Assembly (NCBI GenBank): GCA_012474735.1
Contig: GCA_012474735.1_4085.1
Strand: one strand, 5' to 3'
DNA from: a phage
Length of the DNA stretch: 64,000 nucleotides
Shown here in pieces: positions 25,254-34,021 of the stretch (position 1 is the stretch's first letter; each line of letters starts with the position of its first letter). The position numbers and the translations under genes are program-made. The notes beneath the pieces are model-generated. The model was not told where the DNA came from. It saw only the letters and a program-made list of their open reading frames with translations, and made no database searches.

Positions 25254-25259
25254 CATAAT

Positions 25260-25278
25260 GCCAGTACTCTGTACTGGC
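25260..25278 (+). terminator. intrinsic terminator of array cassette
   Basis: GCCAGTAC-TCT-GTACTGGC then TTTCTTATTT; followed by AT-rich TATAA(T/C) box and AAAGGAGGG SD. Confidence 0.65.
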
Positions 25279-25322
25279 TTTCTTATTTGTATTAAATATA
25301 GTATAACAAATAAAGGAGGGAA

Positions 25323-26463
25323 TATGTTACCTTTTGCAAGAATGGTTAAGTACGGGAATATCGCACCTGAACTGATTCTACCTAAAAACAGGTTACAATG
25401 TTCTGCTGATGCCAAATTTTATTTACACACAAATGGTAATCTATATTGGTTTGGTTCTTCAGCATATGGACAAAGTGGTAATGGTTCATTGGACTCTTCA
25501 ACTGAATGGACTCTTGTCAACTCAAATGTTACACGATATTGGGGTGGGGTACAAGGAACAATTGCTATAAAGAAAGATGGTACTATTTGGTACACTGGTA
25601 GACGTACTGTTATTCCAATACTATCTTCAAACACTAACGGCGTTTGGGTTGATATAACACAGAACTTTACTGATTTCGGTGTCAGTGCAGATGATATTGA
25701 TAGTGTTGTGATATCTTCGTGTATGCGTGTATTTTTAAAAAATGGAAAGTGGTTCTACTGTGGTGCTGGTACTGGTGGTGTTTTTGGGAATGGATCAACT
25801 TCAAGCGTTTCACGATTCACCTATAGTACAATAGAAAATGTTATCAGTGCTGGTTGTGCAATATATAGTACTGGATTAGTACTAAATGATGGTTCATATT
25901 GGTATGCAGGTAGAACGTTTGTATCAGGAACGACGACACAAAACTTGCTCACATTTACACAAGATACTTCGATTAGTAATGCAATTAAAGCAGTCAATAC
26001 AAATGAAACTTCTTATATATTTCTTAATGATGGTAATGTTAAAGTTGCATCTATTAACGACTATGGACAAGCAGGTACAGGAAATAGGTCAGTAGCCCCA
26101 ATGAGTACATTAATTCCAAATTTATCATTCCAAGGAGAAGTGGAGTTGGTGGGTGAGCTTGGGACAAACCTTACCGGACCATCCTGTATAATTAATAATA
26201 ATAATAAGTTATTTTCATGTGGCCTTAATTCAAATGGTCAATGTGGTATTGGTACAACTGATATGTATATAACATCATTCGCTGAAATGGATCTTACTGC
26301 ATTAGAAGGTAGTAATCTTAGTAGTTTTTGTAAGAGCTATTCTTATACGATGTTAGTTGACGAATATAATAATTTATACACATGTGGTGTACCCAATCTT
26401 ACTGGAATGTCTTCAACTACTGTACCAACAAGGGTTCCTGATTCACTTCTACCGTGGAAATAA
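25323..26463 (+). CDS. RCC1-like repeat protein, array member 3
   Basis: MLPFARMVKYGNIAPE; RCC1-like motifs. Confidence 0.7.
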
Positions 26464-26469
26464 TATAAT

Positions 26470-26488
26470 GCCAGTACACTGTACTGGC
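26470..26488 (+). terminator. intrinsic terminator of array cassette
   Basis: GCCAGTAC-ACT-GTACTGGC plus T-rich tail. Confidence 0.65.
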
Positions 26489-26534
26489 TTTCTTATTTGT
26501 ATTAAATATAGTATAATGAATAAAGGAGGGAAAT

Positions 26535-27683
26535 ATGTTACCTTTTGCAAGAATGATGAATTATGGGAATATTGCCCCTGGTAAGGATAGGCGTTTTAAA
26601 ATATATTCAAGTGATTCTATGTATCTTCATGATACTTATACTAATAAGTTGTATGCATCTTCTGCGACGAATTGGGGTACTGGAACAGGTGTAGCATCGA
26701 GTAAATTTATTCTTTGTGCGGAGAATGTTAAACGAGTTCTATTGGAAGATAACAGTAGTAGTTGTCAATTGTATGAAGAGAAAGGTACTGGAAAAGTTTT
26801 TATCACTGGTAACACGAAGGCATTCACTGGTGTAACTGATACAAAAACTTTGTGGACGGACTGTACTACGTGGATAACATCAGGTGGTATTAATGTTTCT
26901 GATATAAAATACATGAGTAGTTTTAATGATATGAAGGTGAATTTGATAACAAACGATGGTACGTTGTATTGTTGTGGAGTTAACAATAACTCGAACCTAT
27001 CATCATTTGGTGATGGTACAAACATTAATTCTTTTAACACATTCAAAAGGGTAGATACTATAACTTCGGTCAAAAAGGCAGTTGGTAACATATACCTAAA
27101 AGAAGATAATACTTTATGGGGTTGTGGTTTTAACTATTACTATCAGTTAGGTACAGGTAATCAAACTTCTATTACTGGGGTGACGATGATTTCTTCAGAT
27201 GTTATAGATTTTGATGTAAGTTATCAGAGTACATTTTTTATTAAATCGGATAATAATTTGTACGCTTGTGGTAAACAGTTCGGTGCACAATACGGGAACG
27301 AATTTGGCACAGGTGGTACTTCTTCATCTACCGATATACAATACAAAACTCCGACATTATTGAGTTCAGGAGTTTATACTCTATATACTTGTGTTAGTAA
27401 CATGGCATCACATATAGTTAAAGGTGATGAAGTTCTATACGCATCTGGGTCGAATGGATTTGGTCAATTAGGTGTTGGTAATAATATTAATCAGTACTCA
27501 TATACTCCTTCGTATACTTCGTTTAATAGTTCGTGTAATTTGGTACGCACTCCATCTGGTTCACTTATACTTACGGACACTGAGAAATTATATTATTGTG
27601 GGTATGCTATGGTAGTAATGGGGGGAATTGCTGGACAAAACATTCTTAGTTATACAGAAGTTGATATGTCATTTATACAATGA
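26535..27683 (+). CDS. RCC1-like repeat protein, array member 4
   Basis: MLPFARMMNYGNIAPG. Confidence 0.7.
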   Translation: MLPFARMMNYGNIAPGKDRRFKIYSSDSMYLHDTYTNKLYASSATNWGTGTGVASSKFILCAENVKRVLLEDNSSSCQLYEEKGTGKVFITGNTKAFTGVTDTKTLWTDCTTWITSGGINVSDIKYMSSFNDMKVNLITNDGTLYCCGVNNNSNLSSFGDGTNINSFNTFKRVDTITSVKKAVGNIYLKEDNTLWGCGFNYYYQLGTGNQTSITGVTMISSDVIDFDVSYQSTFFIKSDNNLYACGKQFGAQYGNEFGTGGTSSSTDIQYKTPTLLSSGVYTLYTCVSNMASHIVKGDEVLYASGSNGFGQLGVGNNINQYSYTPSYTSFNSSCNLVRTPSGSLILTDTEKLYYCGYAMVVMGGIAGQNILSYTEVDMSFIQ

Positions 27684-32669: not shown

Positions 32670-32680
32670 TTATTTTAAAT

Positions 32681-32699
32681 GCCAGTACAGAGTGCTGGC
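32681..32699 (+). terminator. intrinsic terminator of array cassette
   Basis: GCCAGTAC-AGA-GTGCTGGC (one G-U pair) plus T-run. Confidence 0.6.
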
Positions 32700-32744
32700 T
32701 TTTCTTTTTGATTAAATATAGTATAATGAATAAAGGAGGGATTT

Positions 32745-33950
32745 ATGTTACCTTTTCCAAGGATGATAAAATACGCAAATAAAATGAAAGTTCCTGAAGT
32801 GAAAGAAATCTTTATTTACAATGGTTATAGTGCGTCAGTTATTCCAGCAACAGCACTCTTACTATTATATAAAAATGGAGACTTAATGGGTATAGGTGGA
32901 ACTAGTTCACAAAACTATGGATTCGGAAATGGTGTACCTAATGCGAAAGTAAAAGAGTGGGCTTTAATATACCAAAATGTAAAACGTTTTAGAACAGCCC
33001 AAGGTTCTTTTAATTTAATCCAAACCGAAGATAATAAATTTTATTACAGTGGCGTAGGTAGAGCTATTGGTACAGGATTAAGTACTGTCAGTACTTATAC
33101 TGATTGTACTTCATATTTTACATCAGTATTCAATGCAACACAATTGTCGCAAATTAAGGACATTCAAATTGTAGGGGAGGGTATTTTTGTTTTACTTCAA
33201 AATGGTACGCTATATGGAATGGGGGCCAATACACAGGGATATTTTGGTAATAACACAACCACAAGATTATCAACATTTACTTCAATTAATACGAATGTGG
33301 ATAGTGTAAAAACAGGTTCAAGTGCAGTGATTGTGCAGAAAATTGATAAAACACTTTGGGTCACTGGTCAAAACACATGGGGTTCACTTGGTATAAGTAA
33401 TGGTGAAACTAACGTTAAAGTATGGACACAAATGGGTGCATTAGCCAACAATACTGTTATACATTATGAACTTGGTGGGAGTGCATCATGGGTTGTATCT
33501 AAACACAACACGAATAATACATATACAGTTCGTGCAAGTGGGATTCAATCGGAAGGTAACTTGGGTAATGGTTCAGCCGCTTCATCAGGGACAGTATTAT
33601 CTACAATCTCCACTCTACCAATATCAGATAATATGGAAATGAAATCAAATTCATTAACATATGGTGGGCTTACGGTTAAAACTAACAATTCACTTTATAT
33701 GTGTGGTATAAACACATATGGTAGGCTCGGTCGCGGTAATACCACATCAAGTACTACATTTGTAGTTCCAGTTGATGCACCTAAAGTTGGCAGCATCGAG
33801 TTATTCTGTCCAAGTGAATGTACAAATGTGTATATGGATAATCAAGGGGATGTGTATTTGAGTGGCTATATCCCACAAGCGACAGGTACAACAGTTTCTG
33901 ATTATTACACTAAATTTCAATTATATAAAATACCCAGTCGTGGTATATAA
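32745..33950 (+). CDS. RCC1-like repeat protein, array member 9
   Basis: MLPFPRMIKYANKMKVP. Confidence 0.7.
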   Translation: MLPFPRMIKYANKMKVPEVKEIFIYNGYSASVIPATALLLLYKNGDLMGIGGTSSQNYGFGNGVPNAKVKEWALIYQNVKRFRTAQGSFNLIQTEDNKFYYSGVGRAIGTGLSTVSTYTDCTSYFTSVFNATQLSQIKDIQIVGEGIFVLLQNGTLYGMGANTQGYFGNNTTTRLSTFTSINTNVDSVKTGSSAVIVQKIDKTLWVTGQNTWGSLGISNGETNVKVWTQMGALANNTVIHYELGGSASWVVSKHNTNNTYTVRASGIQSEGNLGNGSAASSGTVLSTISTLPISDNMEMKSNSLTYGGLTVKTNNSLYMCGINTYGRLGRGNTTSSTTFVVPVDAPKVGSIELFCPSECTNVYMDNQGDVYLSGYIPQATGTTVSDYYTKFQLYKIPSRGI

Positions 33951-33956
33951 AATAAA

Positions 33957-33975
33957 GCCAGTATTTTGTACTGGC
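33957..33975 (+). terminator. intrinsic terminator of array cassette
   Basis: GCCAGTA-TTTTG-TACTGGC plus T7. Confidence 0.6.
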
Positions 33976-34021
33976 ATTTTTTTGTCCTAAATATAATAAC
34001 GATTTACATTTGGAGGATACA

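What the first reader, a model, noticed from the sequence alone, without database searches (positions are those of the whole stretch)
25254..34021. Repeated terminator / promoter / SD / N-terminal-codon cassette between array members
Every junction in the RCC1-like array carries almost the same 70-80 bp: hairpin GCCAGTAC-N3-GTACTGGC plus T-tract, an AT-rich box TTGTATTAAATATAGTATAATGAATAAAGGAGGG, and the first 45-50 nt of coding sequence. Identity at DNA level while gene bodies are diverged implies homogenisation or cassette exchange by recombination between these flanks, in the manner of the mobile regulatory cassettes (PeSLs) reported for T4-type phages. The promoter lacks a good -35 and is not an exact T4 late TATAAATA, so its class is unclear.
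Basis: partly seen in the sequence, partly recalled or inferred. Interest (0 to 1): 0.65.

Follow-up and report, generated by a model that had tools for sequence, protein, structure and literature searches.

The report
Swappable gene cassettes in jumbo phage
A giant E. coli phage keeps about ten very different virion-protein genes in a row, each preceded by the same roughly 100-base terminator, promoter, ribosome-site and address-tag block, and related phages have used that shared block to swap, lose and reorder the genes.

Summary
Eight junctions (25254-34063) carry an 8-bp hairpin plus T-run; seven also carry TAAATA-N3-TATAAT/C and AGGAGG, and all eight start ATG-(T/C)TA-CC(T/C)-TTT. The I>J copy is degraded. 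None is expected by chance. The array has ten members (22933-35174). The A>B junction has no cassette.

The window is a PBECO4-like Asteriusvirus. Across nine relatives with conserved flanks, the array holds 29 gene types in different numbers and orders. The shared block runs from about -66 to +35 relative to the ATG, and crossovers fall inside it.

Gene bodies have 74-85% orthologues in phage EJP2, yet the cassettes resemble their own genome's copies (0.87) more than the orthologue's (0.63). That is concerted evolution.

The first 12 codons are also under peptide selection. The tag M-[LI]-P-F-x-R-h-h-x-Y-G-N is disordered in the model. In relatives it sits on Kelch, lectin-like and Gly-rich proteins. 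Tagged proteins were found in phAPEC6 virions.

The mechanism resembles PeSLs, but this is not a PeSL: it has no -35 and occurs only in the array. Literal PeSL-like elements lie on the other strand. Promoter class and timing remain inferred.

The parts
22860..22974 (+). Array entry: first-gene promoter variant (TAAATATGATATAAT at 22902-22916), SD AGGAGG at 22922-22927, ATG at 22933, tag codons. It has no GCCAGTAC hairpin.
   Evidence: The same leader precedes whichever member comes first in nine genomes: A, K, D or L.
22933..24135 (+). Member A, an RCC1-like beta-propeller of 400 aa.
   Evidence: Orthologue EJP2_7492 is 74% identical at protein level.
24136..24143 (+). A>B junction without a cassette: an 8-nt gap, with the SD AGGAGG at 24134-24139 overlapping the stop codon of A.
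   Evidence: In 121Q, UB and UE-S1, member B is instead preceded by a full cassette.
24144..25253 (+). Member B, RCC1-like, 369 aa.
   Evidence: Orthologue EJP2_1652 is 85% identical.
25254..25365 (+). Cassette B>C: hairpin 25260-25278, box TAAATATAGTATAAC 25293-25307, SD 25314-25319, ATG 25324, tag codons.
   Evidence: (hairpin -12.4 kcal/mol). The TATAAC variant is present at this junction in all six genomes that have it.
25324..26463 (+). Member C, RCC1-like, 379 aa.
26464..26576 (+). Cassette C>D: hairpin 26470-26488, box TAAATATAGTATAAT 26503-26517, SD 26524-26529, ATG 26535, tag codons.
26535..27683 (+). Member D, RCC1-like, 382 aa. This is the member modelled with AlphaFold.
   Evidence: (pLDDT 91; residues 1-17 below 50). 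Orthologue EJP2_3814 is 82% identical. D is absent from CRJP21.
27684..27796 (+). Cassette D>E: hairpin 27690-27708, box 27723-27737, SD 27744-27749, ATG 27755, tag codons.
27755..28945 (+). Member E, RCC1-like, 396 aa.
   Evidence: E has 5 different left and 4 different right neighbours among nine genomes.
28946..29061 (+). Cassette E>F: hairpin with a 4-nt loop 28953-28972, box TAAATATATTATAAT 28988-29002, SD 29009-29014, ATG 29020, tag codons.
   Evidence: (-13.4 kcal/mol).
29020..30199 (+). Member F, RCC1-like and frameshifted. The tag ORF is 29020-29199 and the body ORF is 29123-30199.
   Evidence: The same split is annotated in slurp01 and CRJP21. F is deleted in SD-15_S21.
30200..30312 (+). 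Cassette F>G: hairpin 30207-30225, box 30240-30254, SD 30260-30265, ATG 30271, tag codons.
30271..31422 (+). Member G, RCC1-like, 383 aa.
   Evidence: G has 5 left and 6 right neighbours.
31423..31535 (+). Cassette G>H: hairpin 31429-31447, box 31462-31476, SD 31483-31488, ATG 31494, tag codons.
31494..32669 (+). Member H, RCC1-like, 391 aa.
32670..32786 (+). Cassette H>I: hairpin 32681-32699 (one G-U pair), box 32713-32727, SD 32734-32739, ATG 32745, tag codons.
32745..33950 (+). Member I, RCC1-like, 401 aa.
33951..34063 (+). Degraded cassette I>J: hairpin 33957-33975, CTAAATATAATAACG without TATAAT, SD-like GGAGG, ATG 34022 (ATGCTACCCTTT), and a tag degenerate after residue 8.
   Evidence: (-11.4 kcal/mol).
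34022..35174 (+). Member J, RCC1-like and split into a tag ORF 34022-34246 and a body ORF 34278-35174.
   Evidence: The same split is annotated in slurp01, 121Q, SHEFM2K, CRJP21, SD-15_S21 and UB.
35829..35854 (.). Hairpin AATCCAGTACTTAATAGTACTGGATT just past the array, between two minus-strand genes. It has the same CCAGTAC/GTACTGG stem word.
   Evidence: -15.6 kcal/mol.

Best explanation
Each array member is a self-contained expression module. It comprises an upstream hairpin plus U-run (a terminator or attenuator for the preceding gene), a -10-only promoter box TAAATA-N3-TATAAT, a strong Shine-Dalgarno (AGGAGG) 5-6 nt before the ATG, and about 12 codons for an invariant N-terminal tag M-[LI]-P-F-x-R-h-h-x-Y-G-N. 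The tag is a flexible tail outside the folded domain.

The roughly 100 nt from the hairpin to about codon 12 are nearly identical at every junction, so they act as portable homology. Homologous recombination between them, within one genome or between co-infecting relatives, deletes, inserts, replaces and reorders whole genes. Short conversion tracts keep the cassettes of one genome alike, which is concerted evolution. Selection separately holds the hairpin core, the promoter core, the SD and the tag.

The cargo is mostly RCC1-like propellers. In relatives it also includes Kelch, ConA-like lectin and Gly-rich proteins, and it is virion-associated. I infer that the tag is the common signal that puts these varied ligand-binding domains on or in the particle, and that the array is a fast-turnover repertoire.

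Shown here: the anatomy, the shuffling, crossovers inside the block, concerted evolution, tag conservation across folds, and the match to phAPEC6 virion proteins.

Inferred: promoter and terminator activity, late timing, what the tag does, and what the cargo binds.
For: Anatomy and non-randomness.

Shuffling: 29 types among 99 members in nine genomes, 10 of them singletons, with many different neighbours per type. Flanks are conserved at 89-100% identity.

Breakpoints: upstream of -66 the sequence follows the left gene, downstream of +43 it follows the right gene, and between these points it is shared by all junctions. In CRJP21 the C>E junction has the SD spacer of C>D joined to the body of E. 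Tag-codon variants (MVKY, MMNY, MIQY) move between gene types. The linked double substitution TATAACAAAT occurs at five different junction types. UE-S1 carries two EJP2-type cassettes.

Concerted evolution: member D and its EJP2 orthologue score 0.83 in the body but 0.63 in the cassette. Within-genome cassette identity is 0.87, 0.80 and 0.76 in the three lineages, against 0.61-0.67 between lineages.

Selection on core elements: all 95 hairpin-bearing junctions in 11 genomes have TAAATA, and 75 have the exact TAAATA-N3-TATAAT. Outer stem pairs change in a compensatory way around an invariant AGTAC/GTACT core.

Tag: five of the ten invariant alignment columns lie in residues 1-12. P3 and F4 are present in 58 of 58 member types, and R6, Y10 and N12 in 56 of 58. 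Residues 1-17 have pLDDT below 50 on a model with mean pLDDT 91. The tag is present on Kelch, Laminin_G_3 and Gly_rich_2 members and on a member matching a PHROG annotated as virion structural protein. It occurs nowhere else in the 114 kb searched.

Virion association: phAPEC6 Table 1 (PMC7247149) lists proteins whose masses equal those I computed for tagged array members gp003, 005, 006, 007, 009 and 010. GAP32 gp001 was also detected by mass spectrometry (PMC5259590).

Late-type hint: the window has canonical TATAAATA promoters directly upstream of two structural-gene homologues. One has the same layout of hairpin, T-run and (TAT)AAATATAG.
Against: No transcript data exist, so initiation and termination at the cassettes are unproven. 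The U-tract is interrupted (UUUCUUAUUU), so the hairpin may only attenuate. The B>C copy has TATAAC and the I>J copy lacks TATAAT, so the sigma-70-like hexamer may not be the working element. The box is not the canonical late 8-mer.

Lineage-specific leaders could in principle reflect co-evolution with a lineage-specific factor rather than conversion.

The virion location (surface or internal) and the role of the tag are untested. Only 15 of 58 member types have a protease-like x-E motif after the tag. Mass-spectrometry peptide counts are low, 1-5 per protein. Members F and J are frameshifted, so part of the array may be decaying.
Confidence: 0.78

Rival explanations
1. Selection alone. The junctions look alike only because terminator, promoter, SD and N-terminal peptide are each under purifying selection. 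Recombination plays no part.
For: The core motifs (AGTAC..GTACT hairpin, TAAATA-N3-TATAAT, SD, tag) are conserved across three lineages, including Salmonella phage Munch. The tag codons are conserved even at junctions without a cassette.
Against: Non-core positions (loops, T-run variants, the leader between the box and the SD) are uniform within a genome but differ between lineages. An orthologue's cassette (0.63) is less similar than a paralogue's (0.87), although the orthologue's body is 0.83 identical. There are also chimeric junctions, a linked double substitution found at five junction types, foreign-type cassettes in UE-S1, and whole-gene indels bounded by cassettes.
Confidence: 0.08
2. 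Site-specific exchange. The hairpin with its invariant AGTAC/GTACT core is the recognition site of a dedicated nuclease or recombinase, and cassettes move in an integron-like way rather than by general homologous recombination.
For: The inner stem word is invariant across genera while the outer pairs covary. AGTACT and CAGTAC are over-represented about 12.6-fold genome-wide, in all reading frames, which suggests a protein reads this word. HNH and homing endonucleases are annotated nearby in relatives.
Against: The crossovers that can be mapped lie in the SD-to-codon-13 segment, not at the hairpin, and they differ between events (CRJP21 versus 121Q C>E). Linkage decays gradually across the block rather than at one point. 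No integrase-like gene adjoins the array in any of the loci fetched. The SD-15_S21 deletion used a short microhomology outside the hairpin.
Confidence: 0.1
3. Operon with RNA-stability hairpins. The array is one long transcript from the first promoter. The hairpins act as 3' stabilisers or processing sites, and the AT boxes are not promoters.
For: The U-tract is imperfect. Several junctions in relatives are translationally coupled with no cassette. TATAAC at B>C would cripple a sigma-70 -10 hexamer.
Against: TAAATA is present in 95 of 95 hairpin-bearing junctions at a fixed distance from the SD, across genera whose leaders have otherwise diverged. The first gene, which has no upstream array gene, carries the same box. 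A bona fide late promoter in the window has the same layout of hairpin, T-run and promoter. This rival would not alter the recombination role of the cassette.
Confidence: 0.12
4. Recent tandem duplication. The junctions are alike because the copies are young.
For: The unit length is regular at about 1.2 kb.
Against: Paralogue bodies are only 24-30% identical at protein level, yet have 74-85% identical orthologues in EJP2 and a 40% orthologue in Munch. The duplications therefore predate these lineages.
Confidence: 0.02

Closest known systems
PeSLs (promoter-early stem-loops) of T4-type phages (Arbiol et al. 2010, PMC2839356; Comeau et al. 2014, PMC4122927)
   Same: Both are small composite terminator and promoter blocks, ending in an SD and start codon, that lie between non-essential genes in a plastic genome region. 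In both, indels and replacements between close relatives have their breakpoints in the repeated block.
   Different: The array cassette has no sigma-70 -35 and no -35/-10 pair, and its products are virion proteins, so it is probably not early. It occurs only inside one array, not dispersed. It extends about 35 nt into coding sequence for a functional peptide tag. The host phage is an Asteriusvirus, not a T4-like phage. Mini-circles were not tested. The same window does hold literal PeSL-like elements on the other strand.
T-even internal-protein (IP) loci with the capsid targeting sequence (Repoila et al. 1994, as cited in PMC3012670)
   Same: In both, a short conserved N-terminal leader sits on otherwise diverse proteins encoded at a locus that is polymorphic among close relatives, and the products are found in virions.
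   Different: There is no sequence similarity to the T4 CTS. There is no consistent protease site after the tag (15 of 58). Location inside the capsid and ejection are unknown. The cargo here consists of large ligand-binding folds of about 40 kDa rather than small basic proteins.
Conserved N-terminal anchor with a swappable C-terminal domain in phage tail fibres and tailspikes (general principle, from my own knowledge)
   Same: A conserved 5' coding segment serves both as the attachment part of the protein and as a recombination boundary for exchanging binding domains.
   Different: Here the conserved part is only about 12-17 residues, is predicted to be disordered, and is fused to a repeated non-coding regulatory block. 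No evidence places these proteins on the tail.
Concerted evolution of tandem gene families by unequal crossing-over and gene conversion (general principle, from my own knowledge)
   Same: Repeats within a genome are more alike than orthologous repeats between lineages.
   Different: Only the roughly 100-nt junction is homogenised. The genes between the junctions stay ancient and divergent.

Membership tests
PeSL (T4-type promoter-early stem-loop) | A sigma-70-like early promoter with -35 and -10 boxes and an AT-rich upstream region. | tested here: not met
   The consensus scan does not report the cassette promoters. The hexamers 16-18 nt upstream of TATAAT (TTTCTT, TTCTTA) match TTGACA at no more than 3 of 6 positions, by direct reading. 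The definition is taken from PMC2839356.
PeSL (T4-type promoter-early stem-loop) | A stable stem-loop next to or overlapping the promoter that acts as a terminator or attenuator. | tested here: met
   The stems are 8 bp with energies of -11.4 to -13.4 kcal/mol, z-scores of -2.7 to -6.3, and a following U-run. Outer pairs change in a compensatory way across lineages. Function was not assayed.
PeSL (T4-type promoter-early stem-loop) | Dispersed through hyperplastic regions upstream of unrelated ORFans. | tested here: not met
   blastn finds 9 places in PBECO4, all of them array junctions, and counts in the other genomes track array size. The box and tag are absent elsewhere in the window. The array does lie within a long run of small genes of unknown function.
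PeSL (T4-type promoter-early stem-loop) | Indel and replacement breakpoints between close relatives coincide with the element. | tested here: met
PeSL (T4-type promoter-early stem-loop) | Formation of excised mini-circles by recombination between neighbouring elements. | not testable with these tools
   This needs outward-facing PCR or junction reads from infected cells or virion DNA.
T4-type late promoter (gp55-dependent, TATAAATA) | The 8-mer TATAAATA at -10 with no -35. | tested here: not met
   The cassettes have [T/G/C]TAAATA, matching 6 of 8 positions. Canonical TATAAATA occurs at window 49807 and 50455 (minus strand), upstream of structural-gene homologues. The absence of a -35 is shared.
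Intrinsic (Rho-independent) terminator | A G+C-rich stem-loop followed directly by a run of U. | tested here: inconclusive
   The stem is good and the scan flags all eight copies. However, the U-run is interrupted (UUUCUUAUUU or UUUUCUUUUU).
T-even IP locus / capsid targeting sequence | A short conserved N-terminal leader shared by otherwise unrelated proteins. | tested here: met
   The tag is invariant at P3 and F4 (58 of 58) and near-invariant at R6, Y10 and N12. It is present on RCC1, Kelch, Laminin_G_3 and Gly_rich_2 members and on members with no Pfam match.
T-even IP locus / capsid targeting sequence | The products are present in the virion. | tested here: met
   The phAPEC6 virion proteome (PMC7247149 Table 1) was matched by computed mass to tagged array members. 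GAP32 gp001 was also detected. This was not shown for the phage of this window itself.
T-even IP locus / capsid targeting sequence | The leader is removed by the prohead protease at a consensus site. | tested here: inconclusive
   Only 15 of 58 member types have [AGSVP]-x-E within residues 12-22. No N-terminal peptide data are available.
T-even IP locus / capsid targeting sequence | The proteins are packaged inside the capsid and ejected with the DNA. | not testable with these tools
   This needs localisation by cryo-EM, bubblegram imaging or ejection assays.
RCC1-like seven-bladed beta-propeller | RCC1 repeats and a propeller fold. | tested here: met
   Pfam RCC1, RCC1_2 or WD40_RLD matches are found in all ten window members. 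The model has pLDDT 91. The top Foldseek hits are UVR8, HERC2 RLD, RPGR and RCC1, with E-values of 1e-19 to 1e-13.

The most novel reading that the evidence does not exclude
The array may be a tag-addressed, cassette-exchangeable library of virion accessory proteins. In this reading, a 12-residue N-terminal address label (MLPFxRhhxYGN) is sufficient to load structurally unrelated ligand-binding domains (RCC1, Kelch, ConA-like lectin, Gly-rich) onto or into the jumbo-phage particle. The fused terminator, promoter, SD and tag block makes each gene a plug-in unit that phages trade. This would give rapid turnover of host-adhesion or anti-defence cargo, making the array a phage counterpart of an integron or of the T4 IP locus. 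The invariant AGTAC stem word, which is also the genome's most over-represented word, might link cassette biology to a genome-wide DNA-reading protein.
Probability: 0.35. Interest if true: 0.8.

Novelty: new variant of a known kind. Interest (0 to 1): 0.55.

Why it matters
The RCC1-like arrays of 121Q/PBECO4-type jumbo phages have been annotated as DNA condensation proteins and left unexplained. This analysis shows three things. The locus is hypervariable. Its genes are individually packaged with a common regulatory block and a common N-terminal tag. The tag also sits on non-RCC1 folds and on proteins found in virions.

Several questions thereby become directly testable: what the array is for, how the proteins reach the particle, and how a phage keeps a swappable repertoire. 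The tag and cassette could also serve as a practical handle for loading foreign proteins into these phages, or for exchanging modules in phages considered for therapy.

The locus is also a clean natural example in which concerted evolution of about 100 nt can be separated from ancient divergence of the genes in between.

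Tried and rejected
I tried or considered the following and set each aside.

1. I mapped PBECO4 annotation coordinates onto the whole window. The window matches NC_027364 colinearly only over 17687-38306; elsewhere identity is 88-98% with indels. Those two analyses were discarded and redone with ORFs called on the sequence itself.
2. I fetched PBECO4 100-150 kb hoping for structural genes from which to define the late promoter. The stretch holds only small minus-strand genes of unknown function. 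It was useful only as context and as extra sequence for word counts.
3. I considered the N-terminal segment as the closing strand of the propeller. This was rejected because residues 1-17 are detached and of low confidence in the model.
4. I considered the tag as a cleaved T4-like CTS. There is no consistent cleavage motif.
5. I considered a MotA-box or sigma-70 -35 reading of GGCTTTC/TTCTTA. The spacing and the matches are poor, by direct reading.
6. An Rfam scan of 20000-38000 at E up to 1 found nothing, and the tRNA scan found none.
7. The literature searches found no description of this cassette, of the tag, or of the AGTACT enrichment. One search was swamped by eukaryotic RCC1 papers.
8. 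A maximal-order Markov expectation for AGTACT gave only 1.24-fold. It is uninformative because the 5-mer sub-words are themselves enriched.

Full report
**Source of the window.** The window comes from an Asteriusvirus jumbo myovirus very close to Escherichia phage PBECO4. Positions 22000-36000 are 99.9% identical to KC295538/NC_027364. Only 17687-38306 is colinear with that record at 99.65%; the rest is 88-98% identical with indels. PBECO4 annotation coordinates can therefore be transferred only inside that stretch.

- The hairpin GCCAGTAC-N3-GTACTGGC occurs 7 times at up to 2 mismatches, and the AT box 6 times at up to 3 mismatches. Neither occurs in any shuffle.
- An eighth hairpin with a 4-nt loop lies at 28953.
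- The repeat finder returns a 7-copy family of 120 nt spaced about 1.2 kb apart.
- The true gene starts all read ATG-(T/C)TA-CC(T/C)-TTT. There are ten members on the + strand between 22933 and 35174. I label them A to J. All have RCC1-type repeats.
- Each full cassette has, in order: the stop codon; 5-10 nt; an 8-bp hairpin of -11.4 to -13.4 kcal/mol; an interrupted U-run; TAAATA-N3-TATAAT; AGGAGG; 5-6 nt; the ATG.
- Mean pairwise identity among the seven good cassettes is 0.87 upstream of the ATG and 0.81 over the first 42 coding nt. Gene bodies score 0.55, the aligner's random baseline, and are 24-30% identical at protein level.
- Three corrections apply. The array begins two genes upstream of the stated coordinates. 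The A>B junction is an 8-nt gap with only an SD. The I>J cassette is degraded.

**The array is shuffled among close relatives.**
- I fetched the homologous locus from eight relatives: slurp01, 121Q, UE-S1, SHEFM2K, CRJP21, SD-15_S21, G17 and UB. I clustered gene bodies at 88% or more DNA identity.
- The orders are:
  - PBECO4-like: A B C D E F G H I J
  - slurp01: K L M A B C D E F G N O J
  - 121Q: D P B C E Q R G S T U J
  - UE-S1: D V W B G Q E H X
  - SHEFM2K: L M A B C D E F G T O J
  - CRJP21: A B C E F G H I J
  - G17: K A B Z D P E Q S N T O Aa
  - UB: K B Ab E Q G Ac Ad T O I J
- That is 29 types among 99 members, 10 of them seen in one genome only. Type E has 5 different left neighbours and type G has 6 different right neighbours.
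- The 2-3 kb on either side of the array are colinear at 89-100% identity.
- Order changes cannot come from differential loss alone. D lies before B and C in 121Q but after them here. G lies before E in UE-S1.

**Breakpoints fall inside the cassette.**
- On an alignment of 73 cassette-bearing junctions, sequence upstream of -66 follows the left gene: 0.85-0.90 identity when the left gene is shared, against about 0.3 when it is not.
- Sequence beyond +43 follows the right gene.
- Between those points all junctions are alike whatever their neighbours.
- Individual junctions are chimeric:
  - CRJP21, which lacks D, has a C>E junction with the SD spacer of C>D joined to E. The crossover therefore lay in the 40 nt of identical 5' coding sequence.
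  - Codons 5-13 exist as variants (MVKY, MMNY, MIQY) that appear on different gene types in different genomes.
  - A linked double substitution (TATAATGAAT to TATAACAAAT) is found at five different junction types.
  - In SD-15_S21, member F was lost by a microhomology deletion that left a solo cassette with a 30-codon stub.

**The non-coding cassette evolves in concert.**
- The cassette is present in 43 phage records. PBECO4 has 9 places, which are exactly its array junctions, so the element occurs only in the array.
- Three lineage-specific versions exist, and each is uniform within its genome.
  - PBECO4-type.
  - EJP2-type: hairpin ACCAGTACTGAAATACGTACTGGT, then GTAAATACATTATAAT, then a long leader TATTTTAATTTTGGAGAATTTAGTT.
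  - Munch-type: MIPF start, leader TACAAGAATTATGGGGGATAT.
- Gene bodies have clear cross-lineage orthologues: A, B and D are 74%, 85% and 82% identical to EJP2 proteins, and C is 40% identical to a Munch protein.
- Member D and its EJP2 orthologue are 0.83 identical in the body but only 0.63 in the cassette. Paralogous cassettes within a genome score 0.87, 0.80 and 0.76.
- The genes are therefore old and the junctions are kept young.
- UE-S1 holds two EJP2-type cassettes with their genes inside an otherwise PBECO4-type array. In one of them codons 5-11 have been converted to the local variant. This shows both import between lineages and short conversion tracts.

**Selection acts separately on the core elements.**
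- All 95 hairpin-bearing junctions in 11 genomes contain TAAATA, and 75 have the exact TAAATA-N3-TATAAT.
- Outer stem pairs change in a compensatory way (GCCAGTAC/GTACTGGC, ACCAGTAC/GTACTGGT, GCTAGTAC/GTACTAGC, GACAGTACT/AGTACTGTC) around an invariant AGTAC/GTACT core.

**The 5' coding part behaves differently from the non-coding part.**
- It is about equally conserved within and between lineages (0.81 against 0.78). It persists at junctions that have no cassette.
- Across 58 member types the peptide is M-[LI]-P-F-x-R-[MI]-h-x-Y-G-N. P3 and F4 are invariant, and R6, Y10 and N12 are present in 56 of 58.
- In a 20-sequence alignment, five of the ten invariant columns lie in residues 1-12.
- AlphaFold models member D as a confident propeller (pLDDT 91). 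The top structural matches are UVR8, HERC2 RLD, RPGR and RCC1. Residues 1-17 score below 50 and are not packed on the fold. The best-conserved segment of the family is therefore a free linear motif.

**The tag is not confined to RCC1 proteins.**
- Array members in relatives that carry the same tag include a Kelch propeller (E = 2.7e-22), a ConA-like lectin domain (Laminin_G_3, E = 6e-9), a Gly_rich_2 protein, a member matching a PHROG annotated as virion structural protein, and proteins with no Pfam match. Where the junction is not translationally coupled, they also have the same cassette.
- The motif occurs nowhere else in the 114 kb searched.

**The products are virion proteins.**
- The phAPEC6 structural proteome lists several "DNA condensation" and hypothetical proteins of about 40 kDa (PMC7247149 Table 1).
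- The masses I computed for tagged array members gp003, 005, 006, 007, 009 and 010 of that genome match the table to two decimals.
- The single RCC1-like protein of GAP32 was also found by mass spectrometry (PMC5259590).

**The promoter class remains inferred.**
- There is no usable -35 (and direct reading).
- Canonical T4-type TATAAATA promoters do exist in the window. One lies 18 nt upstream of the ATG of the 514-aa structural-gene homologue (48238-49782, minus strand). The other lies 37 nt upstream of the ATG of the 127-aa one.
- The first of these has the same layout as the cassette: hairpin, T-run, then TATAAATATAG, compared with the cassette's TTAAATATAG.
- Relatives of this clade are reported to have RpoD-like promoters, a divergent class and a late ATAAATA class, together with a gp55-like factor (PMC5259590).
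- The window also encodes a sigma-70-family factor with regions 2-4 (61730-62695, minus strand).
- TAAATA is more strictly kept than TATAAT. B>C has TATAAC in every genome that has that junction, and I>J lacks the hexamer. I therefore favour a late-type, -10-only promoter, consistent with virion products, but this needs transcript mapping.

**Comparison with known systems.**
- PeSLs are defined as strong sigma-70-like early promoters combined with a stem-loop. They are dispersed upstream of ORFans in hyperplastic regions, sit at indel breakpoints, and are able to form mini-circles (PMC2839356).
- The array cassette shares the stem-loop, the SD and ATG end, the plastic setting and the breakpoint role. 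It fails on the -35/-10 promoter and on dispersal. It adds a coding tag.
- It works like a PeSL but is not one.
- The other close analogue is the T-even internal-protein locus, where diverse proteins share only a capsid targeting sequence (PMC3012670). The conserved leader, polymorphism and virion presence are shared. A cleavage site is not evident (15 of 58), and internal location is untested.
- I found no paper describing this cassette or tag. One paper notes that two "chromosome condensation regulators" are among the most divergent proteins between two sister phages (PMC13070987).

**Two further observations arose while checking.**
- The minus strand carries a second repeated cassette: the hairpin GGTTGACTTCGGTCAGCC, with 8 exact copies and 1 near copy and none expected.
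  - In three copies the 5' arm supplies TTGACT, followed by an 18-nt spacer and a TG-extended TATAAT (11 of 12 matches). These sit upstream of different open reading frames.
  - That is the literal PeSL architecture, so the phage has both kinds of element.
- AGTACT and CAGTAC are by far the most over-represented hexamers.
  - AGTACT occurs 274 times against 21.7 expected. CAGTACT occurs 249 times against 9.6 +/- 3.2 in shuffles. The next unrelated word is enriched only about 4-fold.
  - The words occur in all three reading frames, and the enrichment is also seen in 121Q, G17, UE-S1, EJP2 and Munch.
  - The cassette stem is a split copy of this palindrome. I have no explanation for the enrichment.

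**Verdict.** The refined picture is a hypervariable array of tag-bearing virion accessory genes. Their junctions are homogenised 100-nt expression-and-address blocks that double as recombination sites.

Noticed in passing
whole window (for example 1-24000 at 20-32 copies per 4 kb); also L013, L003, L004, L008, L010, L011: AGTACT and CAGTAC are over-represented about 12.6-fold. AGTACT occurs 274 times against 21.7 expected, CAGTACT 249 times against 9.6 in shuffles, and the palindrome CAGTACTG 58 times. The words occur in all three reading frames, and the enrichment is conserved across Asteriusvirus genomes and Salmonella phage Munch. The cassette hairpin stem is a split copy of this palindrome. 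The cause is unknown.
   Followed up: partly
window minus strand: 8850, 39520, 40934, 42216, 47124, 48210, 49820, 50003, 53245: A second repeated regulatory cassette. The identical hairpin GGTTGACTTCGGTCAGCC has a 5' arm that supplies a -35 (TTGACT), followed by an 18-nt spacer and a TG-extended TATAAT, upstream of different open reading frames. This is the literal PeSL-type architecture. Other copies pair the same hairpin with TATAAATA or TAAATA.
   Followed up: partly
window 18780-22830, minus strand: A second paralogue array lies divergent from the RCC1 array. It has about 17 genes of 59-87 aa (starts such as MHKEYY or MNKEHKEFY, ends such as LIYRY or LIFRY), interrupted by a 223-aa gene at 20711-21382, and has its own repeated junction sequences. 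The number of annotated genes of this size differs a lot between relatives.
   Followed up: no
window 29020-30199 and 34022-35174: Members F and J are each split by a frameshift, with the tag ORF and the body ORF in different frames. For J the same split is annotated in six related genomes; for F in slurp01 and CRJP21. No obvious slippery site was seen. They may be pseudogenes or recoded genes.
   Followed up: partly
window 22915-33950 = NC_027364 157841-168876: Several deposited PBECO4 start codons for array members are inconsistent with the conserved SD and MLPF start. For example, gp288 is annotated to start at 160184 against 160250, and gp286 starts 18 nt too early. A spurious 39-aa gp293 is annotated over a cassette (one search compared).
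   Followed up: yes
window 1-17686 and 38307-64000: The window is not the deposited PBECO4 sequence outside the array region. Identity there is 88-98% with indels, including about 1 kb of net extra sequence between 38.3 and 43.6 kb. The source is a different but closely related isolate.
   Followed up: partly
L007 (SD-15_S21) about 19007-19112: A solo cassette. Member F was deleted between its codon 13 and the next hairpin at a short microhomology, leaving promoter, SD, tag codons and a stub ORF directly fused to the next terminator.
   Followed up: partly
L004 (UE-S1) junctions V>W and W>B, just upstream of 7612 and 8869: Two EJP2-type cassettes with their genes sit inside an otherwise PBECO4-type array. 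In W, codons 5-11 have been converted to the local MVKY variant while the non-coding part stays foreign.
   Followed up: partly
window 61730-62695, minus strand: A phage-encoded sigma-70-family factor of 321 aa with regions 2, 3 and 4. It is a candidate reader of one of the promoter classes in this region.
   Followed up: no
window 48238-49782 and 50028-50411, minus strand: Canonical T4-type late promoters (TATAAATA) lie 18 and 37 nt upstream of the ATGs of homologues of the two PBECO4 genes annotated as virion structural proteins.
   Followed up: yes
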